This document shows, piece after piece, positions 1 through 63,700 of a DNA stretch of 64,000 nucleotides. The stretch spans positions 23,539-87,538 of the forward strand of contig NIVC01003063.1 in assembly GCA_002269645.1 (NCBI GenBank), in the 5' to 3' direction. A program made the translations under genes and the position numbers. The stretch's first letter is position 1. Each line of letters begins with the position of its first letter. The DNA comes from Macrostomum lignano. Its lineage: Eukaryota. The notes beneath the pieces were generated by a model, which saw only the letters and a list, made by a program, of their open reading frames with translations, did no database searches and was not told where the DNA came from.

Positions 1-34529
<34,529 letters not shown>

Positions 34530-42089: not shown

Positions 42090-44890
42090 CGACTGTGACC
42101 TGATTGATTCTGTCTACAGGGATCGCGTTTTTCAAAGCATAATTCACTTGCTCAAGATCTTCAGGTGTGTCCACAGAGAAATTGGCAATTATTGAAATCA
42201 TATTTGCTCTTAGCTGGAAAGAAGTGGCAGTGGAAAGTAATAGTTTTAATGCGGAACATACATTTCAAGGAATCAGTTTATTTATGCACAATTTTCCGAT
42301 GTCGTACCTCAGTCATTATGTTTTGAAAAACTGCAGTCTCCTCAGATGTAGCATTTGACCCCTCGGCGTCGTCGTTCTCAGCATTCATCACGGATGCCAG
42401 GCACACGATGGTGGTGGCAGCCGCCTGCTGGTTTCCACTTCGCAAATGCTTCTCCAAGTCGTCGTTGGATCCATCGAAAATTGCGGTCAAGTTTTCAAGC
42501 AATACGCTCGCGGGGATCGGAGGTGGATAAACCTATCAAGGGATCAACGACGCCAAAAATTATTGTCAGAATCCAATATAAGCTACTTGAGTATGGTTTA
42601 CAGCATCGTCACTTACAAATACGTCAAATACAAAGGCGATCTTATCTCCGATGCTGTCAATAACGTTGATGTAAGCGTCAGACCTGAATCCATGAGAGCC
42701 AGAACCAACTGGCAGCAGAACTGGCGGTGAAATGGCTGCTGGTCCATAAAACAACAGAATGGTTCGCCGAGTTCCTTTTGGTCGAATTCGATATTCGTAG
42801 GTGAGTTTATTGGAGGTTACGTTGAACTCCTGCCAGCCCCAGCATGAGATCTGATATTCGGTGATCATCGCGTAGCCAAAGTTCGGCTGAATGGTGCAGT
42901 TGCCTCCACTGGCCGGCTTGTTAACAACAAAGATTTTGCTTACTGTGACCGGACCCTCCTGTCCGAAGCTGGATGCAGACACTTGATGAGGTACGCCACA
43001 CCCAGGGTCATTGTGTTGGCCTTTCGAACCAGAGTGTTGTTGGCGAAACCTAAGCAAAATCGGATTTAGTTTTTGGTTTAAATGTTTCTTAATCCTGGGA
43101 ACAGCTGTACTGCTAAAACTTACCTGAGTCTGTAACAAGTTGCAGATTGTCGAAATGATTAGCCGTCAGCTGTCTCATTGCCTAGTCAAAGGAAAGGCCC
43201 GAAAACTTGGTCCCACAATGGGATAAGCAGTCGGCCTGGTACACCAATGGCGCTGAACCGCCCACTTTCTCGGCACAGTTGCTCACGCATCTAAAAATCA
43301 AATTTAGCGCAAGCCAGTAATCAACTTTAATTTCATTGGTAGACACATTGGGGTGGCCTTGGGGGTTCCCTGTCAGCCACCCGATTCCGCTTATCGTCTA
43401 GTGTGCAGCCACCCCACTCCCGGTATGTACATTTTAACGTCAGTTTAATGTCGGTAAAAACCGATCGGCCAAAGTTATAAACTAAGATGCCAAGGTTTAT
43501 TGGTGGAATTGTCGAGAGGTCAAGGCTTATGGCGGCAAATGCTAAGATATCGAGGCTTACTGAAGGTAAGGCTGAGATCTCAAGGCTTACGGGGGAATCG
43601 CAAATATTTCAAGGCTTGAAGGAATTGCTAAGATATCGAGGCAAATAGGATACACAGTAATAATTTTCGTCTATTGGTCGCCCCGAAGGGAGGCCCAAGG
43701 CCAAGATTGCTAGTCAATCAACTTTGATCAATAGTGCAACACGATAAGAAACCATTTTATGGGCTTTACTCGACCAATAAAGCACATAACTTACGAAACT
43801 CTTAAAGATGCTTGTTTTTGAGGGCTGACATAAATGTTCCAGTCAGCATTGGCTGTACGCCCGTCCTTGGTCAAAAGTGTTCGAACAATATAGATATAGT
43901 TTGGAAGCATGTGAAAAGTGTCAAGAACCGCCGTGGCTGATTCATTCTGCTCCATGAAGATTCCAATGCCGTTGCCAAAGCAGCCAGAATATCCTTCAAG
44001 ATCTTGGCTCACAGGAATGCTAATCCGAGTTTCCACATTGTCAGGAAGTGACGGCAGCTCCGCCTCCTGCAGACAAATCCAGCGAAACGCCATGCCCGTC
44101 AGATTCCCAGCCTCAACGTCCCAGTCCCGAGGCGACAGCTTCAGCCTGACAGTTTCGTTGTAGGCAGCGGAGGCCGGTGTTGACTCATTGTTGAAGCTCA
44201 GCGTCAGAGGTGTCTCCGTGATTTTGAGGTAAAACGCGAACTCTGCAGAGACCGGAGGCGTCACGGCAAACATGGATAGGTTGAGTACAATCTTGTACAG
44301 ACCATACCAGAGTGTGCGGTTGGGAACCTGCAGCAGAAATGAGTTACCGAGACTCAGGCTGACTTCAGCTCCGGCTGCATACAGAACTCGCCAGCGCCAA
44401 TACGTGTTGCTTGTCTTCGTGCAGTTCAACTCCGGAAGACCCTCTACAACGATCTCTTGGGACCTCATCAGCTGCAGAGGCCTCTCGGGATCCCACTGGG
44501 TCAGAATCCGACCAGCATGAGAAAAGTTCAGTTTTGGTTTGTCGCACATCCAGTCGAGTATAATTGCCAGAGTTTCGGCCGTGTCGTTGCTGACGTGGTT
44601 GAATGCTAGCAGAGAAGCCGAGAAGCCACCAAGACTTGGATAAACGTGAGAAAACGAAAACAACGTGTTGTTGTAACAAATTTCAGTAAAATTGATGCCC
44701 CGAGTAGCAGAGTAGGGCTGACACAAAAATGGAATGCCAAAGCTGATTGATGTAGAGTCTCCAAAATCTACGACAAAACAGCTGTTTGTGCCGAATCTGG
44801 TGATGTTTAAGAAGAAGAAAGTCGCGTTCGATATGAAGGCCGAGCCGTTCGTTTTGAAGCTTTCGACTATGACAGCATCGAGCACAATGT
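42090..44890 (-). CDS. Copy B REJ-module exons
   Basis: NKPASGGNCTIQPNFGYAMITEYQISCWGW...LTYEY...LLPVG...VIDSIG is the REJ C-terminal motif. Contains the TAG at 43182-43184 and a frameshift near 42983. Confidence 0.85.
43480..43713 (+). mobile_element. Helitron-like 3' end of the same family, with ~30-bp degenerate repeats
   Basis: ATTGGTCGCCCCGAAGGGAGGCCCAAGGCCAAGATTGCTAG|T, preceded by GCTAAGAT.TC.AGGCTTA repeats. Confidence 0.55.
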
Positions 44891-47800
44891 CTACAGAGAT
44901 CGGAAGCGTTTGGAAGGAGATGAGGTTGGAGCAGTTCAGACTAAAGTTTTGCAATCACAAGGCAGCTCTGGGAAACGAGTGAGACAAGGCGACGTCCGCA
45001 CTGAACCCAATCGTGTCGGCGTAGATATAGCTGGAGCCAAATATGTCCCAACTGAACACGCAATGCACATTGCTCAGTGAAAGCAGGGAGTTCGACAGTC
45101 GAAAGTGCACCTCAGCAGGTGTGTACAACACGCTAGAGTTGTACTCCAGTGTCAGACCTCGAACTCTCTCCTGAACCACAACGGGACCGAGCGACACCGT
45201 CTTGTTGCTGACGTCATTCCAGACAGACACTCGCGTAGTGAAGTTGCCGACACTTGGAAACTTCAGCTCAACAGTACCCAGGTGTCCCAAAGCTGCTATG
45301 CGGCCGTCACCAAAGTCGACGCCGACCCGTAGAGCAGATCCGGTGACTACCGAGACGGTGAAGTTTCCAGCTTCCGCTTTGACCAGGACCGTGGGACCGG
45401 TGAATATCAGACCACTCACTGCCTCCTGACAACGCACTTTTACATTCGGAGCATGTAGAATGGACACCAAATTCCAGCAGGTTACTTGCACCGGCTCCGG
45501 TCCTTGAAGGAGACTCCTTGAACACGCGAGCGGCAGCTGAGTTGACACTTCTGATATCGAGAGTTGTGTTGATATGCTTCCGAACACGAAGCTGCAATTT
45601 GCATTTGTTGGTAGTGGCTCAGGGTGACTCAGTGTGGCGCTCACGTTTGTGACAGACAGCTCCAGGAATGTCGGGGCTTGTACAGTCAGTGACTGGACTG
45701 GATTCTGGACTAAGACACCGAGCGTCACGGCCTCAGATCGAGTGTGATAGTTGGCGGCGAACGCTGTCAGTTGGTAATAGCCTGGTATGTGAAAGCTCAT
45801 GTTGAAAACATCTGCAGCTGCCCAGGCAAACGGATGCTGATCTTCTAAATGTACCGAGCTGCCGTTTCCAAAGTCTAGCTGATATGTCACGTGACTACCG
45901 GTGCCAACAGAGAAAGTTAGCGAGAAGCTGCGGTTTGTAGCAACGACAGAATGGCTTGAACTGAAGTGAAAGTTTGTCACGTTCTCCTGCAGAATCACAT
46001 AGAAAGAGGCGGTGTGAACGGACAAGCGGTTCCAACAGGAGACATTCGCCACCGCGGATGGAGCATCGAGTGGGAAGATTATGAATTCGTCATGGCTAAC
46101 AGTTGGCCGAAGAGTCGTTGTGATGTTAAGCTGCTGGACTCCAGGCTGCAACACGGCAGTGCAGAAGATTGGCAGATTTGACACTGCAGTGCCGCGCATC
46201 ATGTCAAGGCGAAGAGTAGCGTTGAGTGGCGCTGCTGTGGGAACGTAAACCAGAAGCAGCCTGAGATAGTCGACGAGTTGAGGCGCGACCTCCACATCTT
46301 TGAAGGATTTCCAGTCCCCTGTGCCATTGCCGATCGTGCATTGAAAGTCAAACAGGCCGACGTCTTCTTCAAATGAAAAAGAAAGTTCAGTAGAGTGAGC
46401 AAGAAAGTTGCTCGTGTGTCCAGCAGCTACCCAGTTCCAGTGCTGCTTTTGTCCGTTACTGAAGTTGGCAACCAACTGCAGACCTGAGCCTTGATGCCAC
46501 GATGCAGTCACTTTAAATGTCTCATTGAGTGACAGCAAAGGCTTGGACACTTCGCATGTAGCATTGAGAAGCGGAACTTCAGAGCAGGACAGATTTCCAA
46601 TGATTGAGGCGCAACCAATGTTGTTGGATAGGTCGCTTTCCGTATAGGAAGGCCCGGAGCTTTCATTGAAAACTGCACACAAACGGGTAATGTCGGGACA
46701 GCTTGATTCAGAGACATTGAAGATGTAGCTGCAATTTACGATGCTGAAATTCGAGAGGCCCTGACGCAGTTGGTCTGGCTGACAGAAAGCGGTCTTTGGC
46801 ATCTCAAGCGCATTCAGAGAAAAACCGGATGTCAAAAACGCAACCGGCTCAAAATTTGTTCGTGGTGGTGGAACTTCAGCTACTGGCAGTCCAAGGCTTA
46901 GATGCAGTAAGTATGTGACAGTCAGGTGCACAGGGTAGCGATGAATCCATGTGCTGTTTCTCATTCTAAAGTTCACGCTGAGCAACTCTGTGTCTGCAGT
47001 AAGACTGCAGTTTCGAGGCAGTTCTGTACACGCTGCGCCGTTCTCTGGCGAAGCCATGACGAAACTACCGTTAGTAGTTCCTACGTATGTTCCAGTGCAG
47101 ACATAGGGAAAAAGTTCGCAAGTGGCCAAGTCAAGATTTGTCTGCGCACTCAGCCTGACGCCAGCGGCCTCGCCAGGATGCACAGAATCTCCAGATGTCA
47201 GGTTGGCAGGTAAACTCAAATTTAGCATTAAGCATGAGGAGGCAATGCAGCTGGTGTTCAAGCTACAGTTGCTGCGGCAGAGAAATAGGACTGGTTCCAG
47301 CTGTGGAAGTGAAATAATAATTTTTAATAATTTAAATAATCTATAACATCGCACAAAAGTATGAAATTTATCTCTTACTTGAAAGTTTGCATCCGGCAGG
47401 GTCACCGCGGCCACGTGAAAGGGACTGGATGGGCTGAGGATGAGCACTGACTCAAAAATCAGAAACTCCTGAGTTGATCGAGTAATCACCGGAGGGCTTA
47501 TCAGATGAAGTGAGGCTGAGACATTCAACTCAGGCTGGCACAGCTTGTTGAAAGAGACGCAGGCTTCGTTGTTGTCCAGCTGGTAGTCGACAAACTCGGA
47601 GAAGCTGCCCGGTGCTGCGGACACGCAGACATTTGAGATCTGGTGGCAGATGCTTCCGGCAGGCAGCTTTAGTGTTGCTGTGCACACAACATCGAATGTT
47701 TCTCCAAGATAGCGTGCAGCACTGAGGTTTCCGCTCACAGCGATCGCTGAGCTGGCGGTGAAGTTCAAGTCGCTGACTGATGAATTAAAGCGGGCGGTGA

Positions 47801-47955
47801 GGTCGAAGTTCGTCCTCGGAGACGGAGCGGCCGTCAAGTTTGTGGTGGCGTTGAGAACACGAATTCTGAAGCTGAACGTCAGGTTGGTCGCGATGTCCCG
47901 AACTACTGTCTGGGTAGAGACCAAACTCAGTGAGTTGACTTCGGTGTCCATCACT
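44891..47955 (-). CDS. Copy B exons: three Cys-rich repeats followed by several PKD repeats
   Basis: 999-aa ORF that includes a 78-nt in-frame intron at 47301-47378. PKD signatures include VTYQLDFGNGS, GYYQLTAFAANYHT, VGVDFGDG and GNFTTRVSVWNDVS. Confidence 0.85.
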
Positions 47956-48029
47956 GGAAAAGAAAATGAGGTTATGAATCACGCATTCTATCACTTGTAA
48001 CGAAGCAAAAGCTTGCAGCAATTTGTCCT

Positions 48030-48185
48030 GAGCCACTTACAAAGTTTGCACAAAGCTTTCCGCATCACGTAGCCAGACTTGCACAAGCACGTCGTATTCA
48101 ACGGTTCTCCGGGTGACAGACACACCGTGTACTTTGCCAGAGTGCAGCTTGCATCCGCGAAGCAAGCATCGTTAATATTTTTAGC
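48030..48185 (-). CDS. Copy B exon, EGF/EB-module-like Cys-rich domain
   Basis: KNINDACFADASCTLAKYTVCLSPGEPLNTTCLCKSGYVMRKALCKL between ttccag| and |gtaagt, phase 1/1. Confidence 0.7.
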
Positions 48186-48254
48186 TGGAAAAATCGAGAT
48201 TAGTTGTAGCTCCTTTGATAATTGTACAAGTTAGGGTAGCAAAAATCAGACTTA

Positions 48255-48825
48255 CGTAAGTGATAATAGGATTTTTGAATGATTCTCATTTGAACCTGAG
48301 CCCCTGACGCGCTGCTCAACGACCATCTGATGGAGTCGGATCGGTTTGAGCCGGCGCTCCCTGTGAGCTTCGTGGCGGGACAGTCGCTGCTGAACCACCA
48401 GCCGCTGCCACCAGCAGTTGCGCACATCTTTGCGTGCCGAAGTCGAACGTAGAGAAGGTCGACATGTTCTGAGCTTCGAACAGCTGCCCGTCACCGAAGT
48501 CGGAGGTACAGTCTTCCAACCGGAGCTGAAAGTCCAGAAACGACGGTGCCACTTTGACCTCCCGGCACTCCACATATCGAAAGCTTCCGTCGGAGATCCA
48601 CGCGTCGATCCGCATGGAGAAGTTGACCATGAGTGTCAGATCGCTGAGTGACTGCAGCCCGATCCAAACGAGGTTGTCCATCTCGAAACCAGCCTGATAC
48701 TGCGCTATAGAGAAGTTCATCGAGCTGTTCAGGTTGAAGTTTTGATAAATGATCATCCAGTCGTGGTAGCAGTTGATTTTCTTGCTGTCAATGGCGGTCT
48801 CATTGCGACCCACGCATGTCGGTAC
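48255..48825 (-). CDS. Copy B exon, fibrinogen-related (FReD) domain with a frameshift
   Basis: WMIIYQNF...QYQAGF...WIGLQSLSDLT...MRID...FSTFD...CA, continuing in another frame as GGSGWWFSSDC...LTG. Confidence 0.8.
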
Positions 48826-49959
48826 TGGAAAAAGCATGTCGAAAGTCATTTAGCACTTTTTTACGCCAAAGAGCAGTTTCGAAAACTATAAATAAAGAAT
48901 ATATGCCGAAGCAGAGGACGACTCACCCTGCAGCACGCTTCCAAATATTTCATATTTAAAACTCAAATCGCTCCGGTAAATTGCAGGCATAATCTTGGCC
49001 TGCTGAGCAACCACTATTGTGCGGGACTGAAGTATCACCACCTGGTTCAGCAGATGCTTTTCGTTTACGGAGAGTCGTGACGTCTGAAACCGATAGAGGT
49101 CATTCATTACTTCGTCCGGTAATTCTCAAAGAGAGATGCAGTTTTTAGCTTACCTGGTTGTCGCTGAGCACAAATGTTGCAGGAAACCAAGTCATGGTCT
49201 CACCGTCGAAGTACAACAACAGGATGGAGTTGTATGCGAGGGGCTCTCCGTCTACGCGTTTCAGGTTGTTTCCGGCACCAGAGAAGCCTAATCCGGTGAT
49301 TCTGACTTGCCTCGACATTGTCACCTGACGGTAGGTCATGATGGCTTTCTATCTATCTCTATTAACAGTCTATCTTACAGACAAAAAAACGGTCAATTAC
49401 GAGTACCATTATGTAATATCCGTTGAAACACTCCGAAGGTGACAAAGTTGGAGACGACAAGAGCGAATCAGCTGCAGTTCCGTTTGTAGCGTTGGCTGTG
49501 AAAGTAACACTGACGTTCGATGTTTCAGACATCAAGTTCTGCCAGGAATCAGCTGAAATCATTTCAATTTTACCTAACTGTAAGTAAATGCTCATATCTA
49601 CTGCACATGTCAAGACTCAGAATACGAAAGCGAAGTGACTCACGACGACAGACTTGCTCCACGAAGTGAGTGCCGATTCGCAATACTGCTTGGAAACTGA
49701 TTGACAGAGTGTCCACATTCAGCCCTGTGAAGCTCTCGTGGGAAATCTCCAGGCTCCTGCACCCTCCATCCTGGCACTTCACCAGCGCACTCTGAATGCT
49801 GTCCACTTGTAAGGACTGGCGGGTGTCGGAGACAATTGAGTAATTGTAGAACACATTGTAGAACGGGTTGGAGCAGCTCAGGTGTTGCAGAACATCTGCA
49901 ATTAATCAAGTCATGGATCTGACCCAGTTCCAATGACAGTCTCTGCATCAACCTAGATC

Positions 49960-50490
49960 AAGTCGGTGAGCTCACCGGCCTCAGTCTGGCACAGGATGTG
50001 ACCTCTGAAGGAGCCGCAGTCAACTGCAGTCCAGGCCTCTTCAGTCAGCCTGGTGGCAGCGCAGGCTCCCGCCACCGAGGGCTCCCCGATGCTCCAGTGC
50101 GCCCAGGCTCCCAGGCTGCTGTTGGTCGCCTCAGATAGCCACTGGCCGCTGCTGGAGTTGAGCACTGCGCCAACGTGAAACCTGAGGTCGCTGGGCTGCG
50201 AGCTGAAGCCGCTGCGGGTGCACAGAGTTGGGTGAGTTTGTCAGTGAGAGGCTGGCATAGTGCTGGGTTAAAGCAATGCGAGCGATTCTGGCATACAGCG
50301 AGTGATCGATGAAGGCCAGCTTCAGAGCGGTGTAGTCAGCGTATGAAGTAGGCAGGAAGAGGCCGCCAGGCCGGTCCCAGTTGAGGCTGCCGCAGTAAGC
50401 CTTCGCCACTTCGCGCGCGACTCCCGGAGTTCCGTCCGCAGAGTGGTGGCGGCAGCGGCCTTCGAAGTAGTAGAAGTTCACAGGGCAATC
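49960..50490 (-). CDS. Copy B exons, C-type lectin domain (absent from copy A)
   Basis: DCPVNFYYFEGRC...AKAYC...LFLP...FHVGAVL...W...HWSIGEPS...CAA...WTAVDC...ILCQ. Confidence 0.85.
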
Positions 50491-50768
50491 TGTAGAATGG
50501 CGCATGTTTGATTGAAATCTTGTGAATAAATGACAGGTAAAAAAGATTTAAAACTGTGGCTTACCTCCCGATGGACAGCCGTATATAGTGTTGATGGCCA
50601 AATTATGTATCTCAGATGCGTTTCCCAGTATCTTTCCGCTCTTGGCAATAAAAGTTTGATTCAGCCAAATACGGTTTGTACCGTTGATTACGCGGAAAGT
50701 CTAAAAACATCGTTAATAGTGAAGATTGTTTAAATAATCAAGTATAGCGAGTATCGAGTATCTATCGA

Positions 50769-51723
50769 ACTCACGGAGATTCACTCAATTAGCCATTAGC
50801 ACAAACTCACGGAGATTCACCCAATTAGCCATTAGCACAAACTCTCACGGAGATCACTCAATTAGCCATTAGCACAAACTCACGGAGATTCACCCAATTA
50901 GCCATTAGCACAAACTCACGGAGATCACTCAATTAGCCATTAGCACAAACTCACGGAGATTCACTCAATTAGCCATTAGCACAAACTCACGGAGATTCAC
51001 CCAATTAGCCATTAGCACAAACTCACGGAGATTCACCCAATTAGCCATTAGCACAAACTCACGGAGATTCACCCAATTAGCCATTAGCACAAACTCACGG
51101 AGATCACTCAATTAGCCATTAGCACAAACTCACGGAGATTCACTCAATTAGCCATTAGCACAAACTCACGGAGATTCACTCAATTAGCCATTAGCACAAA
51201 CTCACGGAGATTCACTCAATTAGCCATTAGCACAAACTCACGGAGATTCACCCAATTAGCCATTAGCACAAACTCACGGAGATCACTCAATTAGCCATTA
51301 GCACAAACTCACGGAGATTCACCCAATTAGCCATTAGCACAAACTCACGGAGATTCACTCAATTAGCCATTAGCACAAACTCACGGAGATTCACCCAATT
51401 AGCCATTAGCACAAACTCACGGAGATCACTCAATTAGCCATTAGCACAAACTCACGGAGATTCACCCAATTAGCCATTAGCACAAACTCACGGAGATTCA
51501 CTCAATTAGCCATTAGCACAAACTCACGGAGATTCACCCAATTAGCCATTAGCACAAACTCACGGAGATTCACCCAATTAGCCATTAGCACAAACTCACG
51601 GAGATTCACTCAATTAGCCATTAGCACAAACTCACGGAGATTCACCCAATTAGCCATTAGCACAAACTCACGGAGATTCACTCAATTAGCCATTAGCACA
51701 AACTCACGGAGATTCACTCAATT
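50769..51723. repeat. 36/35-bp tandem array (ACTCACGGAGATTCAC(T/C)CAATTAGCCATTAGCACAA), about 27 copies
   Basis: Three interleaved unit variants with no spacers. It begins 30 nt inside the intron after the donor at 51753. Confidence 0.97.
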
Positions 51724-51753
51724 TATAGCTACTATCAGTGAAACTGTACTTAC

Positions 51754-54700
51754 CTACAGGAAACCCGACGACTCCAACTGTCAGTAGAGCGTCTCCATAG
51801 AAACTGACAGGTGTCAGGACCAGGAACTTTGCCACTACTGGATCCGGCAGATCTTCCACAAAACTCACATTGGAAATGACTGAACCCAGCAATTCTTTGT
51901 CTGGAGTGCCTGCCCTGGGCACTTCCTGAAGCTGGGAGTCGTCATGAGTTCCATAGTGCAGTCTGTACTGATTCAAACATGATCCATTGATCCCGGGAGT
52001 AACAATGGAAAACACTTGATGAGGAACCGGGAATGTGATGCGGATAGAGGCATTCACAGGTAGCTCAAAGGCTGAGTCGCTACTCAGCAGCAGGGCGGCA
52101 GGCCCGCGTTCCCAGCTCGCACTGGAGGGCCGGCGCACCGTGACCTGGTGCGGCGCCACCGGCACGAGAGGCGCCTCAGGCAGCGACTCGGGAGAGCAGC
52201 CGAACAGCTCAAATTTTCCGGCAAACCGGCCAACCACTCGCAGTGGGTAGATGCGGAAATGGCGGCCGATGACAGGGTTGGGTAGTTGCTCGATAGAGGT
52301 TATGCAGCTGTTTGGGTAGTCCGCAGGTCCGTGCAGAACCTGCATGATAGGTGATGAATGAGCCTGTTGTCATAGCTCAGTAATAACTGAAGTATTCAAT
52401 GAATGCTAGTAGTCCACTTTCACAACACTTACGGACGGCGCCAAGCCCCAGAATGTTCCGCTACGAGAGTACATCAGTACATAAGTGACTGCTGCCTCCC
52501 TTGCGAGTCCAGTTAGACAGTAGATACCGGACATTGCAACAGCTCGAATTCTAGCTTGCGTCTGGAGGGTGATTTGAAGCCACTCATCCAGACCGGCGGA
52601 TGCTGCTCTAAAGAAGCCGAAGGTCCCGACCGGAGCGTCTGAAATATTGTACAAATAAAGAGAATGGAGTATGCAGACAATCAGGCGAAAAACTAAAACC
52701 ATGATTAATGGTGTGAGTGACGGTAGGGTAGTCATAATCATAATCAATTCTAATGGGTTAGTCGAACAGGATTTGTTAGCCTGCCAATGGATTCCTTTAA
52801 AGCTTTACATTTAAAATGAAGTTAGTAAACTTTTACTAACTTTGAGTAAAGATTTTTGTTAAAACATTAGGCAGAAGCTTTGTAAGAAATCGGTTACTGC
52901 AAGTATAGCGATAAACGAATATGAAGCAATTGTCTCACAAAATTTGAAAAAAATCAAACTTGAACGAATCTTGTATTATAAAACAAAATATGAAAATTAA
53001 GGGCACATAAAACTTTCAAGGCGATTAAAAAGCTTTTGACGAGAATAGACTAGAGAATCGGTCATTGGTGTTCTGTGTTGAATTCTCACTTTATGATGCA
53101 CATTTATAAGTTTAAATGCATGACAAATACGAGCTATAGCAACCAATCACGGGAATGTCCCGTGAAATCTTGTTGGTAAAGTTACCTTAGAAAATTACTC
53201 GTAGAAGCCAAATAGAAGTTTGCTTACTTGGAGAGTAAAACCCGAACGATACGTGCTCAGGCGGGTAGCCTGGAAGGCTTGACTTAGAAGTGATGCTGGA
53301 CACCATCACAGTTGCGTTGTCGTTTGGGTCCGGACTTAAAAGCGGCCTGTCACAGTCTGCAGCTGAAATTTGTTTAAAACAAGCAAAACATTTCAGATAT
53401 ATGAGAATGCTCAATAATCAGTTTAAAAGTTTTTGCTTATGGATCAGTAAACACCGGCACTGTTACAGTCACGAACATTTTGCCAAGAACTTTCGTCGCT
53501 CACCATAGCACCGCCACCGAAACGAACTGTTCAGGGCAGCCGTTGAACTCTGAGTTGCAGCTTCACCTTCCGCTGTGGCCGCATCACTGACGGTAGCGGG
53601 AGGATGACTCAGCAACACAGCTGAGCAGTTCCGAGTTTCATTTCGGTGGCAGTCGATCAAAGGCTTCAGAATTGGGTTCGATGTAGCGTACGTCCTAATG
53701 GGAGTGGCTGCTGACGAACTCAGGGCAGTCACGAAATATTTCGACTCGCAGTAATTTCCTGCGTATTTAATTGTTAAAAATATGTGCGAGAGTTCAAACA
53801 ACTCAATGTCAGATGCAGCAGAGAAAATCTCACCAGGTGCGGCTGGCACCTCACAGATGAACGGAAAGACGGCAGTTTCGCTGTCGCAGGGCACGGTGGA
53901 CCACTGCATTCGCTCGCCGACCTCCGACACCACGCAGCCGCTGGTTGCATTGCTGGGCAGCTTCCAATTGTTCAGATGGGCTGACAAAAGCCTGCCGTCG
54001 TAGGTTTCAAATCTGCCGCTGGCGTTGCTGAACTCGCCATCGATTTGGATGAACTTGTAGGCCGGGACCGAGCTGAAACATAAGTTATCCAAGATATGAC
54101 TCGATTGCATCTATCTTTAGAATGTTGTATGTGAATGGTTTCAGTTTAGCTCAAACTCTCACAGGTTCAATTTTCCAAAAAGGGCTTTGAAAATCTGTAG
54201 CTCAGACTCCGTAGTCATCTTTGCTAGCCGTCCTCTTCCGTTCCAAGCAAGAGACTTGCAGATCTTGTGAGCAGTTTGCCTCGTTGCGATTGTATGAGGC
54301 TGGCTGGAGTCCGAGAATGGAGCCCAGTAGCAGAGTTGGCCATGACGAAAGGTGTTGATGGGACAGTCTGCGGCCAGGGGTCCCAGTAATGCAGTTACGA
54401 TTGTGTACTACATTTTTGTACTTTTGTATCGCTGAATCCCTGGCCTGCGAGGCACGTTACGGTAGGGTGTACAGGGTACACTGGGTACAGTACAAGGACA
54501 TGGGTCTTTGCTCGCTCCAACGTGACTGAAGCCCTCTCAGGACGCCGGGACACCAACCACCTGATGCTAGTTTCATAACACACAGGCTGGCGTAAAATCA
54601 AAGCGATTAGGGTGTGACTACATGTGCGTAGCCGAATCTGAGTCGGAATCAGAGCACACGGACCCTTAGCTGCCACCTTGGCAACCGAAAGAAAAAAGAC

Positions 54701-57700
54701 GGATGAGCCCACTCAGCGTACTTGGCGGCAGGAACTAATACAAGCAGCCAGGCACAAACCTCCATAGGCTTCCCTTTTGATTCTGTTCTCGCTTCATATT
54801 GTTATTATTCAGCTTGTCCTGGAGTATTGGCGTGGGTGCCTGCAGACTAGTGGAGCGGGCGACCAAAAGCTAGACAAAGTCAGATATAAAAATCGCACAC
54901 ACGCCCAGCAGAGCGCGGCGCGACTACGAGCTACCTAAAAGTCAGCCCGCGCGGGGAAACCATTCCACCACACACCCCACCAGCCGGCCGTTGGGCTTTA
55001 CCCCAAACCAGCCAATCAGGGTGAGAGAGGAAACTCGTCAAGCCAGCCACTTGGCACAGCTAACCAGCCGCAGCGGCTCTCAGTGCCAGAGAGAGCTAAA
55101 GTCGAAAACAAAATGAGAAACATGGGTGGGGGAGGGCAAAGACAAAGAGCTCTTGCACTGCAAAAAAGTTCAAAAGGCAACACTAAGTTTATCACTACTA
55201 CGAGCATTGAAAGCAGTTTTAAAACAGTAGTCTGGGAAAGGGGCTTTCTAGGACAAAAATTATCGCAGCCTCCATAATGCACAAACGATTAACTTTATTA
55301 TTCCTAAAGAGAATAATCACATCCCGAAGGATGTGAAGCTAACCGGAATCGAGCTGTATTTGGAAGTCATTGAGCCAAAGACCGCACTAAAAGCGGATTA
55401 TCTCAAGGCAATAGAGAAGGAAATTGATGTTGCATACACGGCCTACATGTGTCGAGATGAGCGAAACGAAACTAGAACAAACATCTGCATTAAAGAGGGA
55501 TCATGCTGCAATCCAAGGTATATTATTATTAACATGAGAAACCCAAATAGCATTATACGCTACATGCATGGAGACGTGCGGTCCATTCAGCATGAAATCA
55601 GTGATAATCTTTACCCTGCACTGCCACAAAATGGAGATTTCAGTCAGAACAAGATTAGCAAATTTTACAGCGAGTTGGTCGACTTGGCTGTGAAAGGGAA
55701 CAATGGAATTGCTATCACCGCTCTTCAATATGGAACTCTATATCCAATGTTTGGCGCTGATGTGTCTGCCAGACAAATGCCTACTGATAACAGCCCTGTG
55801 AATATCGTGACTAACATTGAGAGGGCTGTCGCAACACCCGTGGACCTGTACATTATCTATGCATTTGAGAGGAAGGTGAAGCTTAACATGATCAACAATT
55901 CATCCAGTAAAGTTTAAAGATATTATTCATTTATTATTTTGTGGGTGAAAAAATGGAAGCGATTGCTGAAAGACTAAATAATATTATTTCTCGCTCTAAG
56001 GAGAGTATTCCTATTACAATAACTGGGCGAATTAATGACTCAAACGGGATATTTGTTGAAAAATTAGAGCAGGTGATTCGCCTGGATCCAGGTGCTAAGT
56101 ACCATGTCTATCTTAACGGCTTCACTTGTTGGTCAAACGTTCCCAATGTGACGGCAGCAAATAATAAGTTTTATTACAAATGGAAAGGTGCAGCAGCAGA
56201 ACCTGTGGTATTCCCTGTGAGCACGCAAAGTGTGGATACCTACAATTACTTTCTAGAAAACGTCTTTACTAAAAAGGCCATTTTGAGACACCTGATCTGA
56301 TTAAGCCAGAACTGTTCCCTGTCAAACTAGCCTATGATCTCACTGTAATGAGAGTGGTCATGCGAGTTTCACAAAGATGCGGAGGTTGAGTTTAAAGATG
56401 ACACTTGGTATAGGGAATTGGGATTCGAGAAGAAAGTTTATAAGGCAGAATCCGCGGCGCGGATCGCCACTCAAACGTCGGGGGCCGTTAGCATGGCCCG
56501 GGAAAGTGTAAGCGGTTTGTTCTTAGCACCCAATATTGCAGACATTGTAAAGGGTCTGCATTATCTCTTGAATGTGATTGAATATTCTAATCAGAAGTAA
56601 TCTCAGTCTTGATTGGGTATTTAAGGGAAAGCGAACAAATATTTTGTACATCTCTATTCTGTAGCTGGAGGACAGATGCTGGTAGAGAAACCAAATCCAG
56701 TGAAAAGAGTTGTATTGAGTAATAAGGAGATTCACGAGATTGTGCTACAGTTTGAGACTGAAGATGGGGTGGGTGTTGATTTCAACGGTGAAGAGTTTGT
56801 ATTGACGTTGATCATTGAGAGAATGTGAGAAAAAAAATACAATTGCTTAATGATTTCTGCAAAGTTATAGTCGCTGTCGTAGTCTTTTACGTAGGTCACT
56901 CCATACTTAAGAAACCAGTATCTTTGGAGAGCTAGATTAATATTAGGGACGTTGATATCAACGCCGGGCAAATATTTTCTCATGTACTCACTGCATTCTA
57001 GTTTGCATCGGTACTTACTCTTGTAATAAGGCTCGTGCCTTTTGTCAAAAGAACCCGGAGAGACGATTGGAAGCATTTTTATTGAGAATTTAATTTTTTT
57101 CGGAGGATGAGCACCCTGGGTTTTGGGATTGGCGCTAATTTGATTGTCTTGGCACACTTTTTGCAAGGCTGGGAATATAGAGACTGATATTTTGTGCTAG
57201 ACTGATGGGGCTGCGTGAATTTTTGATAATAAATGTAGAGACAGATTTTTGTGAGGGGCAGGTACCCTTTTTTCCTGATCTCTTTGGGAATAATAAAGTT
57301 AATTGTTTGTGTATTATGGAGGCTGCGATAATTTTTGTCCTAGAAAGCCCGTTTCCCATACTACTTAAAACACATAAGAGGAGGCAGTTGAATATTCAAA
57401 ATGAATATATTACCAGGAATTGGGCAGCCACGAATTTCGAATCTCGTAGTGACTTGATCTGCATCAGAAAAGTTAATGAAAATCATTCTAGTCCGTAACA
57501 TTGTCGGCAGATATTGCTCAAAACCGAGACTCAAGTTGAACAGCTGGAATAATTCAAGTGGGTGAAATTATTTTTCAAAATATGCGTTTTTGGAAACTAT
57601 TAATACATTTTATTTAATAAAAATTTCGTGGGTCTGTTGCTACGACTGAGTCGATTCGTTAGGTTAGATCAGTCTTGTATCGCTGAAGTGGCTCCGATCA

Positions 57701-60700
57701 ATATCCTAGGGCAACCACTAACCAAACTATAGTCACCCATTGTACACTGCTAAAATGTACAGAAGTATAAAACCTTATATGAGCTATTAATAGACATCTC
57801 ACATGCGCTGAACCGTGAAGTGTGACTGGACGGACGCTTTCATCTACAGGGCTTGCATAGGATACGACGAATGTGGCGTTCTCCGACAGGCCGTTTAGTC
57901 TCCACCCTGTGAGCAAGTGCGCAGTTGCCAGCTGAACCTGCACTGTAGTTGGCGATGTTTGCGTGATTGTCAACACAGCGCTGCTGACCCAGTCGCAATC
58001 TGAAGTGAAGTTTGGCGATTAGCGTTTGAATTTCAGTTCTGATTGATTTTCCTACGGCAACCGCGTCTCACCTTCAGGATAGCCCAGCAGTTCTAGTCTC
58101 AGCAGTCTCTTCCTCACAAATCTGATTGGCAGAATTCTGACTACTCTGGCAAGAAACGGCTTAGTGAAGGACATCCGGTGGCCATTTCGTTGCCTGTGAG
58201 ACCGGTTCTGATGATCTGTAATTGACGAACATTTTGTGCTCTAAAATACCTATTTATCTTTTCAATTGTACTTCCAAGTTGAACAGTACTATTTTTAACG
58301 TCAATCTCACATGGCTTAGTCCTCCAGCAGAGTACTCAGTATAATTGAGCATTTCTGTCGAGCTGTTTCCATACCGAATTCGGCGGTCGTGACGTACCCG
58401 TCAAAGCCTCCAGTTGCGAAGTCCCAGACTCCGCTGCCCTGCCACACAATCCCGGTGATGCGGTGGATTACATCCAGCTGAATCTCCAAGAAGCTGCCGT
58501 CAGTGGCTGCTGCAAGTTAGAAATGCCTCATTTTAGCCTCAACTATCAACTGCAGCACTGCTCACAGCTGGGATCAATCAGCTCAATCAACTCAATCATC
58601 TCAATCAGCTGCCAAGCGACTCACAGTCAGAGAAGACGGCAGCGGGCGGCAGGCCGACCTCCTGGCCGCGATTCAGCGCTGCCATGAGCGGAGTCGGGTG
58701 CCGAAATGCATCCTGCGGACTGGCGGCTGTCGCATCGCCGACTGCCAGCTGATTGGCCATAATGCGACCGTCCTCGAGTCCGACATTTGAGTTGATGAAG
58801 TAGTAGGCAGCTGGAAATAAAAGAACTAGTTGACGTTAGAGTGACGCTGTTTACGAACTCCTGTAAACTCAGTTAAGTTTTTGTCGGAGTAAAGATTTGA
58901 TGTAATCAGCTCACCAATGCTGGGATAGCCGTAGACTTCGAACTCGCAGAGTGAGAGAGTTCCCAGCGATGAATGCTTTCGCAAGCCAGCGACTGAAGCA
59001 ACCTGTTGGTTATTATAGATCACCTCTAAGACTTGTACTTCTCGTTGAGAGTGAAAAAGCTGCCATTTATTTTCTGTTTAAAATGACGGAATCGCTACCT
59101 TATTGACGTTAATCTTCCACAAATGGGACTTCATGAAGCCGCCAGTCCAAGTTTCCAATATCGTGACTGCTGTCGCGTCCCACGGAGCGGCCGTGCTGTT
59201 GCTGATGTAAACACTGGCTGACTGCATGTCCTCGGATAAGGCCTGGACTTTGTCTGTCGGATCAGGGGGTAAATAGGGAGTCCAATAAGTGCGATTGATT
59301 TGTTTAAGGCGACACAGAAAATCTTCTGCAGCTCTGAGGACTCACCGAGTGTCTCGACCATGTCGACTATAAAGATGAAGACGATTCGCTGCGCCACTCC
59401 GAGATCCACGAACCAGTACAGATAAGGATCGGCGGTGCCGGAGTGCTGGAAGCAACGGCCTGACAGAGCGTGGCTCTCGAAGTTCCCGTCGACAGGCAGT
59501 CCTGTTGCTGCGTCGGAATTCGATCCGGTGGGCCGGTAGCGGGACAGCAGAATCGGGTTGGCGATGGCGTCTGGATATGGCGCATTCGGAACGGCAGGAT
59601 TGAGGCTTACAAACGCACTACTCTCGGACCTCAAAAAGCTAAACAATGCATGTCAATGTCCCAATATGCAACTGTTTTTTACTTACTGGCGGAGTCGCTG
59701 CAGCCGAGCAGCTGCCACTTGAACTCGAGTTTCCGCGTCCAGCTCAGCGGATACAGCCGGAAGCCCAACGCGACGGGCTCGGGCAGCAAGCGGTGCCGAG
59801 ACTCGTGCTGAGCCACGAAGACTCCGGTCAAAATCTGTGGAAAGAATTGAGGCTGTCTGTGTGAGTAATTGTTCAATGAACTCAATGGGGAAGCGCATGC
59901 AACTCACCCAGCCGTCTCGGTGCAGGCTCCAGTACTTGCCCTCTTCGCTCACCGCGGCCCTGAATGACGTCACGTAGTTAGAGTTGTCTCCGGCCTGGTT
60001 GACGATGGCGCCGCCGCCGATGGCCACCGCGAACAGCCGGCAGCGTCGTGGAAGAATCGCCTGCAGAGTTGGCGAGTTCCTCGACCGTTAGTCGGCTGGT
60101 GCGAAATTGGACTTCAAATTACTAGGCGGAGCAAGCTGCACCTCCAAATGGTACTTACCTGGACAAAGACTGCGGTAGTGGCTGGATTGTCGCTCAGGTA
60201 CGCAAGCAGGCTGGGCGAGAACGCACCCATGCTGCTGTTGTCCAGCTCATGGAACACCAGGTGCGGCGCCATCTTGCCAGCAGTGTAGGAGTCTGAATCG
60301 ACAACGAACCGCTTCTTCCGCCTTCTGTAGGGCTGAATGAGTCCGGAGTAGCCGATCTTGTTCACCTGGATGCCGTAGACTGAGTCCCAGCAGCTGCCCA
60401 GCGACTGGTTATTAGAGAACACCCTGATAATGGTGAGGTTGCTGCCAGCGCTTTTCGACTGCTGCCAGGTGACGCTGATGTTGGCGAAATCGTCCGTGTC
60501 GAACACCACAGGGTCGGAGAAATCCGAATCCAGCGATGTGAGCTCAAATTCTGCATAGCTGTAGTCCTTGTGCTCAACGGTGCAGCCGCTCAGCCTGATG
60601 TGGCTGCTGTTTCCCGTCAGCTTGACGATTTAACGTTTCTAGACAAGGCAGAAGTTTTGAGACCATTAATAATTTCCTGACCTATTTGAGTTTTATTGCA

Positions 60701-63700
60701 AGAGACTTTCTCACGTTTCTCATGGCTTTGTCGTATCCGTACTGATCCGTGAGCCAAATTTTTAACGTTGTTGTTTTCAAGCGGGCTTGGAAATGTACTT
60801 CCTGCTGAGGGATCGCGGCTGCCACAACGCCTCTCGGCATCCATTCCGGCCTCACTTGCACGTTCTCATCCAGAGTGTAGTCTGAGAAAGGAGAGTTGCA
60901 CTCGTAACAAATTACACAGTAACCTGTACATAAAAAATCTGTTTCTTCCGAATTTGGAGAGTACATGTAAACCTTCTACCTTATTATGCAGCCTATCCTA
61001 AGTTATTGTTTTCTAGAGCAAATTAAAGAGATGATACTTGTACTTACACTCTTTGCCATATACATGCAGAGCAGTGATGCTCAGCGGGGATCCGTGCTCG
61101 ATCCTCCGCACAATGGCCAGGTATCTGGACGGTTCAGAAGCGACGCAGCAACGACGAGCTTGGAGCTCAGGATCGGCACCTCGACAGATCCGCACTGGGG
61201 CCACGCGTCGAAGGCCGAGCCGCCAAGTGCCGGCTGCCAGACGGTGCTGGTGAGCAGCCGAACTCCGAACTGGCTGCGAGTGGCTTTCAGGGTTGGGAGT
61301 CGCTGCATCAGTCAGTTTCGATATGAGTACAACAAAGACCCTTTAATCCCCCATCCTTTTCGACAACTTTCAGCATAGCTAAAGTTGAGTCTTTACTATG
61401 CACCAAAGAAGCATCAATGCGGTTAACGTAAATGATTTTGCATCAGTGTTTCTCAATAACTCAAACTAAATATGAACAAACTACCTGTCTCCATGTCGAC
61501 TCCGGAGATGAGGTGCAGGCTCTTGAAGTCAACAAGCAGACTGTTGACTTGCGTTCCGACCACAGGTGCAACGCTATTAAGGACGAGCCTCAAAAATCCT
61601 TGCGCAGTTCTACCTCTGATGTTGACCTTCTGACCGTTATAGTAGATGGTCTTGAAGTAGGCGATGTTGTGTGAGTACGGTTGCGATCTCCAAGGCTCGT
61701 AGTCGTGAACTTCAATGAGTGAAAAAATATTAACGAGTATGATTACTTTTTCTGTTTCAGAAACAGTGTTTGGGTTTGTGAAAAGATGATCAATTTCCAG
61801 GGAATTTAGTCGCGGAATTTCTGTGGAAGGCGACGACCTCGCTTCGAAATTAAGGGGGTGTTGAGCCAGAAATAACAGTAGCGAATAAAATTCAACACAC
61901 AAGTATGATTTCTGTAATTTTAGTTAGGCAACTGGTATTTGCGTATTTTACCCAGTATAATTATTTTATTTGAACCGACTTCAACAGCCAAAAATAAGCT
62001 GAGTAGCGAAAGAAGAATATCTCAAATACTCGTAGCATAAAAGATTAACATAGGAGTGAACACAAATAGTGTGAGACCAGAGGGCAAGAGAGGGTGAGAG
62101 CACAGAGGATGAGAGTACAGAGGTGAAATCATATTGTTTCACGGAATTCTGCAACGCACCCGCGGATCGGAGACTTTCCACAAACCCTACTGTATTCAAC
62201 TAGGAGGTCTATTGGAACTCACGGCAGCTGTGTCGAATGCAGTCTTCTGTGGATAGTTTGCCGGATTCTCGGCAATAGGGTGATCTGCCTTCGGTGGCTG
62301 CATAAGTATAAATAATTAAAAAATGCATTGAGGAATTACAAACATTGGCTACTTTCGTTGAGTGAAACAATATTTCTGCAGGGCAAAAGCACTTACGACT
62401 GATGCAGTAATTGCGGAAGTCTCTTTTACTGCTCTTGGTTGCTGGCCTGCAAACCTGGCCCCTTGCAGTCACGTTGATCTTGTAGACAAAGTTCTCATAA
62501 TCACCAGTTGACAGAAGACAGTTAGCTGAAAGGTGCTACTAAATGCAAGTTTGAGAAAGCATAGCAAGTGCAAGAAGTACTAGATCGATAGTGAACAAGT
62601 CTTACCGCGCATTCGAACTCCGCTTCCAATGATGGAGCCAGCAGAGTCAAAGTAGGACGCAGAGAACGGGAAGCCCCGGATCGAAGCTCCGCTGCCTTCG
62701 CCAAGGAGCGGACGGTAGCAGTCTGGATCGGGAATGATGCACATGACCCAATGAAAACGATGTTAACAATCATAAGAACTGCTTTTGCTCTGGATTGTTA
62801 GCCGATGTTTACCTCTTTCGGCTGGCATCACAGTCACAATTCTCCTATTAAAGGCTGGCCGAGCACCTCCCACCAGATCGGGCGGCACGCTGCAGGCAAA
62901 CACAGTGGAGTTCGAATACTGAGTGCTGCTGGTGCTGAAGCCGCTCTGACTGCCCTCTAGCAAATGCAGCCGATCGTACAGCAGCCTGCGGTACCGGTTT
63001 CTGCCGGGGTCCGGCTGCTGAACACAAGCTCTACTGTAGCTGCCACCAAAGCTGGCCCTCTGATCCGCATAGGCCACATGACTCACTAACATCGTTACTT
63101 TTTCGCCTGAATTAGAGTTGAGTTCGTTTTTTAGAATGGAGTTTGCACATTGACATTTTGCAAAATGCTTAAGTGTTTAACGCACCGTTTCGTTGGGGTG
63201 CCTGCGGCAGCTGGCAGGCGAACATCTCCTTGGTCCCAGCTTCGTGTGCAACGATGGACGCTTGCATTGTGCTGTACACGCCGTAGATCTCAGACGGCTG
63301 GCCGAGCTTCCAGTGGAGTTTGGCACCGCTGTGCCGTCGAACCAGAACCAGCCGGAGTCGTTCCGCTGCATCCCGATGTGAATTCAAAATCGTTCCTGAA
63401 TGAGGAGAGTATTAAATTACTTCACGGTAAATTGTATTTGTAGCTACGCGTTTGTTTTGTAATTTTATCTAAGTTTTTTATCTGTTCTACGAGCGCTCAA
63501 TCTTAACGAATCACAAGTCCTGCATGATCTTTACACTAACTCGATTTTAGTTATCACCTCATTAACTGAATGCTCTTCCTAACGGAGAGGGAAATGTTGA
63601 ACGCTTCAGTTTTTTTGCTCCATGGTTGTTACTCGAATGACTAACTTACCGCAGCACTAATACCACAGTCATATACCTAGTGCAGTCCTAATACCACATC

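What the first reader, a model, noticed from the sequence alone, without database searches (positions are those of the whole stretch)
55220..57371. Capsid-only mini-Maverick/Polinton with intact termini, inserted in an intron
Seen: 87-bp TIRs starting AGTAGT (5 mismatches), an exact 6-bp TSD TAAAAC, total length 2140 bp, and MCP-like and penton-like sequence. No integrase, polymerase, ATPase or protease is present. Established: Mavericks/Polintons are usually 15-20 kb, make 6-bp TSDs, have AG/AGT-repeat termini and encode a major (PY) and minor (PX) capsid. Inference: this is a deletion derivative that integrated as a unit using a helper element's integrase. That would make it a satellite or defective-interfering Polinton that kept structural genes and lost the enzymes, which is an unusual retention pattern.
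Basis: partly seen in the sequence, partly recalled or inferred. Interest (0 to 1): 0.85.

Follow-up and report, generated by a model that had tools for sequence, protein, structure and literature searches.

The report
Collapsed fossil of a Polinton element
This is a real 2.1-kb leftover of a Polinton (a virus-like mobile element) in an intron of an animal gene, but it keeps only half a capsid gene and a broken penton gene, so it looks like an ordinary deletion fossil and not a capsid-keeping satellite.

Summary
The boundaries are real: 87-nt TIRs (5 mismatches, AGTAGT ends), TAAAAC TSD, 2140 nt, inside an intron of a polycystin-1-like gene. Capsid homology also holds, through intact relatives.

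The element did not keep working structural genes. The major capsid gene is cut: only residues 228-428 of a 428-aa relative remain (47%), with no start codon, beginning at the inner edge of the left TIR. The penton spans full length but has four frame switches. A third small gene (about 75-80 codons, minus strand) and 200 non-coding nt lie inside the right TIR.

One junction explains the structure: 87 nt of the left end joined to the right 2.05 kb. Gene content is therefore positional. Penton decay roughly matches TIR divergence, about 3% per arm, so it decayed mostly after insertion.

Whether the deletion happened in place (about 0.5) or the short unit was integrated in trans (about 0.35) needs the host genome, which I did not have. 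Defective Polintons are common. Interest is low.

The parts
55220..55225 (.). Left target-site duplication TAAAAC
55226..55312 (+). Left terminus, 87 nt, starts AGTAGT. Either the whole TIR or the surviving part of a longer one.
   Evidence: native TIR length unknown
55312..55917 (+). 3' part of a double jelly-roll major capsid gene (residues 228-428 of relative P0001): last strand of jelly roll 1 plus jelly roll 2. No start codon at its 5' edge. Homology begins at the TIR's inner edge, which is the deletion junction.
   Evidence: tblastn 74% identity, E 8e-106; relatives hit PF21738 above cut-off; two beta-sandwich domains at 24-249 and 283-412 in a low-confidence model of P0001
55953..56828 (+). 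Penton (minor capsid) pseudogene spanning full length. Frame switches near 56282-56309, 56374-56385, 56570-56578 and 56628-56658.
   Evidence: 9 intact relatives of 258-332 aa, 54-66% identical to the first piece; frame map; model of relative P0006 matches viral pentons
56451..56516 (+). 66-nt GC-rich (67% against 39%) in-frame insertion in a variable penton loop
   Evidence: no folding signal, z 0.24
56850..57076 (-). Small gene of about 75-80 codons, starting AAAAATG and converging on the penton. Function not identified. The frame stays open to 56732, overlapping the penton end.
   Evidence: stop-free run of 122 codons, 12 of 2000 shuffles; codon usage like the capsid genes, 1 of 5000 shuffles; no credible homolog; weak Atlas lead to DNA_pol_B_2 fragments, score 0.83
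57077..57278 (.). Probably non-coding subterminal or promoter region; may be the rest of a longer native TIR
   Evidence: no coding signal in the small gene's frame, 2049 of 5000 shuffles; TIR reading is inference
57279..57365 (-). Right TIR, 87 nt, ends ACTACT
57366..57371 (.). Right target-site duplication TAAAAC
54372..57412 (-). Host intron (GT..AG) of a large polycystin-1-like gene. The element's TSD starts 41 nt after the donor.
   Evidence: paralogous exons and intron at 4716-4911; Polycystin_dom, PKD_channel, REJ and PKD domains in downstream exons

Best explanation
A full-length Polinton/Maverick integrated into this intron through its retroviral-like integrase, which left the 6-bp TSD and AGTAGT ends. 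A single large deletion then joined nt 87 of the left end to about codon 228 of the major capsid gene. The likeliest cause is abortive gap repair after an excision attempt, or an ordinary break-repair deletion. What survives is whatever lay next to the right terminus: half an MCP gene, the penton, one small converging gene, about 200 non-coding nt and the TIR. The remnant cannot make a capsid and has decayed neutrally. Shown: boundaries, MCP truncation at the TIR edge, penton breaks, small gene, excess change at conserved penton sites. Inferred: that the right 2.05 kb is the parent's contiguous native end, the repair mechanism, and that deletion came after insertion. I am about 0.9 confident that this is a positional one-junction derivative with dead capsid genes. 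The 0.5 below is for the in-place timing.
For: MCP homology starts at 55312, the last base of the left TIR. The region inside the right TIR has a gene with its own ATG and a non-coding stretch upstream, so no second junction is needed. At columns invariant among relatives the window copy differs more than a held-out intact relative in 13 of 13 comparisons (not independent): penton 8.6% against 3.2% (P about 0.005), MCP 11.6% against 7.6% (P about 0.10). A 3% neutral nucleotide drift, which is what the TIRs show per arm, predicts about 6.6%. So there is no sign that the half-MCP drifted long before insertion. A close relative, P0019, carries a different internal MCP deletion. No near-identical copy appeared among 84 candidates of similar length or elsewhere in the window. 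96% of vertebrate Maverick loci are defective (PMC8097293, passages). Interrupted gap repair yields internally deleted copies with both TIRs in DNA transposons (PMC3014272, passage).
Against: An intact TSD and intact ends do not date the deletion. A breakpoint only 87 nt from the end is a small target for a random deletion and is also what a minimal replicon would keep. The MCP half has no stop or frameshift in 200 codons, although all four frameshifts falling in the penton has P 0.12 by chance. The protein search is a weak test of copy number, since the window's own protein was not listed. The TIR clock is wide, 95% interval 2-12%. Gap repair after excision is documented for cut-and-paste transposons; I found no report of it for Polintons (listing only). 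P0019 could be an assembly chimera.
Confidence: 0.5

Rival explanations
1. The short molecule arose during Polinton replication, by polymerase slippage or by copy-back onto the right terminus. It was then integrated here in trans by a helper's integrase, once or as a small MITE-like family. The capsid fragments are passengers.
For: Only a minimal left end is kept, the junction is clean and both ends are intact. polB-lacking polintons that stayed mobile are reported in butterflies (10.1101/2025.02.07.637071, passages). Families named Polinton-1N1_DR and Polinton-N1A_NV exist, the latter with an MCP (reading N as non-autonomous is recalled).
Against: No second copy in the window and no near-identical protein. 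Coding decay is no older than TIR divergence, which argues against a long-lived family but not against a one-off jump.
Confidence: 0.35
2. One reading: a satellite or defective-interfering Polinton selected to keep its capsid genes while losing enzymes.
For: Both capsid genes are represented and no enzyme gene was found. The penton spans full length and was probably intact at insertion.
Against: 53% of the MCP is missing, including nearly all of jelly roll 1 and the start codon. The penton is broken and shows neutral-type change. A non-capsid gene is also kept. Adjacency to the right end explains the content. Krupovic et al. describe the opposite pattern, joint loss of morphogenesis genes (PMC4028283, part 1 of 4).
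Confidence: 0.03
3. Assembly artefact: a mis-join collapsed a full-length element, or long-read indel errors produced the penton frameshifts.
For: The window is rich in repeats. The two pairs of frame switches each restore the frame.
Against: Five long host exons (8097 nt) are open, where the penton's rate predicts about 37 frameshifts; these exons were picked for being long ORFs, so the control is lenient. The TIR arms differ by substitutions, and no repeat is evident at the junction.
Confidence: 0.05
4. Two-junction derivative: both arms were deleted, and the kept block is the centre of a genome where two converging gene modules meet. The minus-strand frame would then be a piece of a larger gene such as pPolB.
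For: Vertebrate Mavericks have two modules that point toward the centre (PMC8097293). The Atlas's best family-bearing hits for the minus ORF are DNA_pol_B_2 fragments.
Against: The Atlas score of 0.83 is reached by a third of shuffled proteins. phmmer over 1.84 billion representatives gave one spurious repeat hit, although capsid relatives at 54-79% identity exist. The coding signal starts at an ATG with the penton's start context and is absent upstream.
Confidence: 0.07

Closest known systems
Polinton/Maverick elements (polintoviruses, adintovirus-like)
   Same: (AGT)2//(ACT)2 ends, 6-bp TSD, TIR length within the reported 46-1447 nt (PMC8097293). DJR major capsid plus a nearby penton (PMC4028283).
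   Different: 2.1 kb against 12.7-24.6 kb for intact vertebrate elements. No pPolB, integrase, ATPase or protease found. MCP halved, penton broken. MCP directly upstream of the penton, next to a terminus.
Defective or fossil Mavericks
   Same: Stops, frameshifts, insertions and lost genes describe 96% of 3511 vertebrate loci. Fragmented 0.6-4.5 kb Maverick consensuses are reported in Mayetiola (PMC8504770).
   Different: Many fossils have lost recognisable TIRs. This one keeps both ends and the TSD around a very short core.
Non-autonomous Polintons (Polinton-1N1_DR, Polinton-N1A_NV; polB-less butterfly polintons)
   Same: Ends kept and enzymes lost; N1A_NV has an MCP.
   Different: Those are described as families or as mobile. 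Multi-copy status here is untested, and I did not see their structures.
Internally deleted DNA-transposon derivatives from abortive gap repair (for example KP-type P elements, recalled)
   Same: A short piece of one end joined to a longer piece of the other, ends and TSD intact (PMC3014272).
   Different: The mechanism is established for cut-and-paste transposases, not for Polintons.

Membership tests
Polinton/Maverick (autonomous) | TIRs with AG- or AGT-repeat termini | tested here: met
   motif in PMC8097293
Polinton/Maverick (autonomous) | 6-bp target-site duplication | tested here: met
   TAAAAC on both sides
Polinton/Maverick (autonomous) | Protein-primed PolB gene | tested here: not met
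   only 450 nt unassigned; no Pfam hit; Atlas lead at 0.83 is at noise level
Polinton/Maverick (autonomous) | Retroviral-like integrase gene | tested here: not met
   15 ORFs of 22 aa or more lie in the right end; 12 were scanned, no rve hit; no room for the gene
Polinton/Maverick (autonomous) | Packaging ATPase and cysteine protease | tested here: not met
Polinton/Maverick (autonomous) | Intact double jelly-roll MCP | tested here: not met
   homologous to PF21738-bearing proteins, but only residues 228-428 are present
Polinton/Maverick (autonomous) | Intact penton | tested here: not met
   homolog present with four frame switches; fold of relative matches pentons, Z 5.7-7.5, rmsd 2.8-4.6, 105-117 aligned
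Polinton-derived deletion remnant | Polinton ends and TSD enclosing Polinton gene fragments | tested here: met
Non-autonomous Polinton family | Several copies of the same structure at different TSDs | not testable with these tools
   no host genome available; 1 copy in 64 kb; no near-identical protein among 84 candidates, a weak test
Non-autonomous Polinton family | Autonomous partner with matching termini in the same genome | not testable with these tools
   intact MCP and penton relatives exist in public data, but without genomic context
Capsid-encoding satellite | Functional capsid genes under purifying selection | tested here: not met
Copy-back defective genome | Both TIRs derived from one end, longer than or different from the parent's other end | not testable with these tools
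   needs the parent's DNA

The most novel reading that the evidence does not exclude
This is the integrated fossil of a defective Polinton genome made during replication: the right 2.05 kb closed by a copied-back 87-nt terminus, amplified and integrated in trans as a 2.1-kb family. That would be genomic evidence that animal Polintons replicate as free linear genomes and spawn defective-interfering particles, and it would bound the cis-sequence for replication and integration at 87 nt or less.
Probability: 0.15. Interest if true: 0.6.

Novelty: new member of a known kind. Interest (0 to 1): 0.22.

Why it matters
As an in-place deletion it is one more defective Polinton copy and matters little, beyond marking a little-sampled Polinton family with about ten MCP and nine penton relatives in public data. 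If the same junction recurs at other sites, it would show that 87 terminal bases suffice for a Polinton to be copied and integrated in trans, which bears on how these elements replicate.

Tried and rejected
Direct Pfam and PDB sequence searches of the window's capsid pieces gave no real hit. The penton profile found nothing in PDB sequences, and 0 of 9 penton relatives had a Pfam family above cut-off. The capsid calls therefore rest on relatives and on folds. Both models are low confidence: pLDDT 50.5 for the penton relative and 38.8 for the MCP relative. In the MCP fold search, unrelated beta-sandwiches ranked above mavirus MCP (Z 5.6), so I used it only for the two-domain layout. The BFVD penton hits had E of 2.7e-3 or worse.

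I first suspected the minus-strand ORF was a protease, then a pPolB piece. Neither was supported. Hit P0015 is a five-fold repeat artefact, and the Med27 hit (E 0.003, below cut-off) was rejected. I rejected the idea that this frame runs to the TIR edge as a truncated gene, by codon usage. Rfam gave 0 matches. The TIR, the subterminal region and the penton insert show no folding signal.

The cluster look-up for the MCP relatives could not be made, so their copy counts beyond one search are unknown. The viral and metagenome contig collections stayed unchecked. A guess at the host (a flatworm, from recall) was not tested; two searches found no relevant paper.

Rows left out of the conserved-site test: P0005, P0017, P0018, P0019 (partial or deleted) and P0013 (truncated).

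Full report
Observation. The arms 55226-55312 and 57279-57365 are 87 nt with five mismatches and begin AGTAGT, TAAAAC flanks both ends, and the length is 2140 nt. The chance of an exact flanking 6-mer is about 2.8e-4. There is no second copy in the 64-kb window. (AGT)2//(ACT)2 ends with a 6-bp TSD are the commonest Maverick termini in vertebrates (PMC8097293, passages).

Host context. The window holds a very large minus-strand gene with Polycystin_dom, PKD_channel, REJ and PKD domains (4 of 13 ORFs scanned carried these), and a partial paralogous copy. Exons on both sides of the element align with the paralog. The paralog's intron is about 195 nt against about 3040 nt here, with GT and AG in matching places. 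The element's TSD begins 41 nt after the donor. The host taxon was not determined.

Major capsid. ORF 55252-55917 has no Pfam or PDB hit itself. Five of 503 longer candidates are relatives, 388-438 aa and 62-74% identical, and all five carry PF21738, a double jelly roll-like domain, above cut-off. Homology covers only residues 228-428 of P0001 and starts at 55312, the last base of the left TIR. The first 20 codons of the ORF are TIR sequence, and the first in-frame ATG is codon 66. A low-confidence model of P0001 (pLDDT 38.8) has two beta-sandwich domains, about 24-249 and 283-412. The window therefore keeps the last strand of the first jelly roll and the second jelly roll. Double jelly-roll capsomers need both barrels (established knowledge), so this piece cannot build a capsid.

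Penton. Nine of 157 candidates are intact relatives of 258-332 aa, and they align across 55953-56825. The homologous frame switches four times, near 56282-56309, 56374-56385, 56570-56578 and 56628-56658, and there is a 66-nt GC-rich in-frame insertion. A model of relative P0006 (pLDDT 50.5, confident only around residues 64-189) ranks putative minor capsid proteins of giant viruses first in BFVD (E 2.7e-3 and 1.2e-2). Its five best PDB matches are all viral capsid entries: EhV-201, PBCV-1, an adenovirus-derived ADDobody, mavirus penton and fowl adenovirus (Z 5.7-7.5). Each score is middling; the consistency is what supports the penton call.

Right end. The 450 nt between penton and TIR hold a 122-codon stop-free run on the minus strand (12 of 2000 shuffles). 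A codon model trained on the capsid pieces picked the right frame in 2 of 2 held-out penton pieces. It scores the part from ATG 57076 as coding (1 of 5000 shuffles) and the 200 nt upstream as not (2049 of 5000). That ATG has the same AAAAATG context as the penton start. So there is a third small gene with its own start, and the element is not capsid-only. I could not name it. phmmer over 1.84 billion representatives gave one spurious hit. Pfam, NCBIfam, PHROGs and PDB gave nothing credible. The Atlas gave a noise-level lead to DNA_pol_B_2 fragments (0.83).

Anatomy. The simplest reading is one junction: 87 nt of the left end fused to the right-hand 2.05 kb of a Polinton (half MCP, penton, small gene, subterminal region, TIR). 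The 'retention pattern' then follows from position. Contiguity of the right part with a parent is inferred, since no parent DNA was available.

Age and selection. The TIRs differ at 5 of 87 sites, about 3% per arm, with a wide interval. At columns invariant among relatives, the window copy differs more than a held-out intact relative in 13 of 13 non-independent comparisons. Penton: 8.6% against 3.2% (P about 0.005). MCP: 11.6% against 7.6% (P about 0.10). Neutral drift of 3% predicts about 6.6%. The excess fits decay since insertion, with no sign of long earlier drift. Against this reading, there are no stops in the homologous frames and no frameshift in the MCP half; all four frameshifts falling in the penton has P 0.12. 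Assembly error is unlikely, because 8097 nt of long host exons are open where the penton's rate predicts about 37 frameshifts (a lenient control).

Copy number. No host genome was available. A similar-length search gave 4 hits among 84 candidates, none near-identical over its length. One of them, P0019, is 93% identical over the last 43 residues and carries a different internal deletion. This suggests that deletions recur in the family with different breakpoints, though P0019 could be a chimera. The test is weak because the window's own protein was not listed.

Mechanism. Most likely (0.5) a full-length element integrated and was deleted in place. Interrupted gap repair produces such copies in DNA transposons (PMC3014272, passage); applying it to Polintons is my inference. 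Next (0.35), the short molecule was made during replication and integrated in trans. polB-less polintons that stay mobile are reported (10.1101/2025.02.07.637071, passages). The satellite selected for capsid genes gets 0.03.

Comparison and novelty. By definition Polintons encode pPolB and integrase (PMC5499653, abstract in listing and one passage), so this is a derivative and not an autonomous member. 96% of vertebrate Maverick loci are defective. Families named Polinton-1N1_DR and Polinton-N1A_NV are mentioned in PMC9341505 and PMC11296320 (single passages); reading N as non-autonomous is recalled. I also saw part 1 of 4 of PMC4028283 and passages of 10.1101/2022.07.12.499685, PMC8504770 and PMC6431247. 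Nine searches listed no paper on a 2-kb capsid-fragment Polinton. The library lacks most subscription papers, I did not read Kapitonov and Jurka 2006 or Repbase entries, and no supplements were read, so such elements may well be catalogued.

Verdict. A real, neatly bounded Polinton remnant whose capsid genes are dead. New member of a known kind, interest 0.22. The open question worth a genome search is whether the junction recurs.

Noticed in passing
window 345-9591 and 43790-60888: Two paralogous copies of the extracellular part of a polycystin-1-like gene, 68-92% identical in aligned blocks; the first gives the intron without the element.
   Followed up: partly
window 56451-56516: 66-nt GC-rich in-frame insertion in the penton. 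Relative P0014 has a longer insertion in the same loop. No folding signal above shuffles.
   Followed up: partly
protein P0019: Close relative of the MCP with a different internal deletion, lacking about residues 214-386 of P0001.
   Followed up: partly
window 54372-55219: The rest of the host intron is 848 nt at 52% GC, far longer than the paralog's whole intron and with no match in the window; possibly another insertion.
   Followed up: no
window 22285-22449 / 23245-23407, 35266-35330 / 35637-35701, 6203-6789: Other inverted-repeat structures (166 nt at 87%, 65 nt at 92%, and a nested foldback-like cluster), MITE-like.
   Followed up: no
window 14744-15328, 30979-31364, 50768-51723: Three tandem-repeat arrays.
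   Followed up: no
window 21648-22088 (+): 146-aa ORF that resembles the start of a tyrosine-recombinase-type element gene (recalled resemblance); no Pfam hit at E 0.01.
   Followed up: partly
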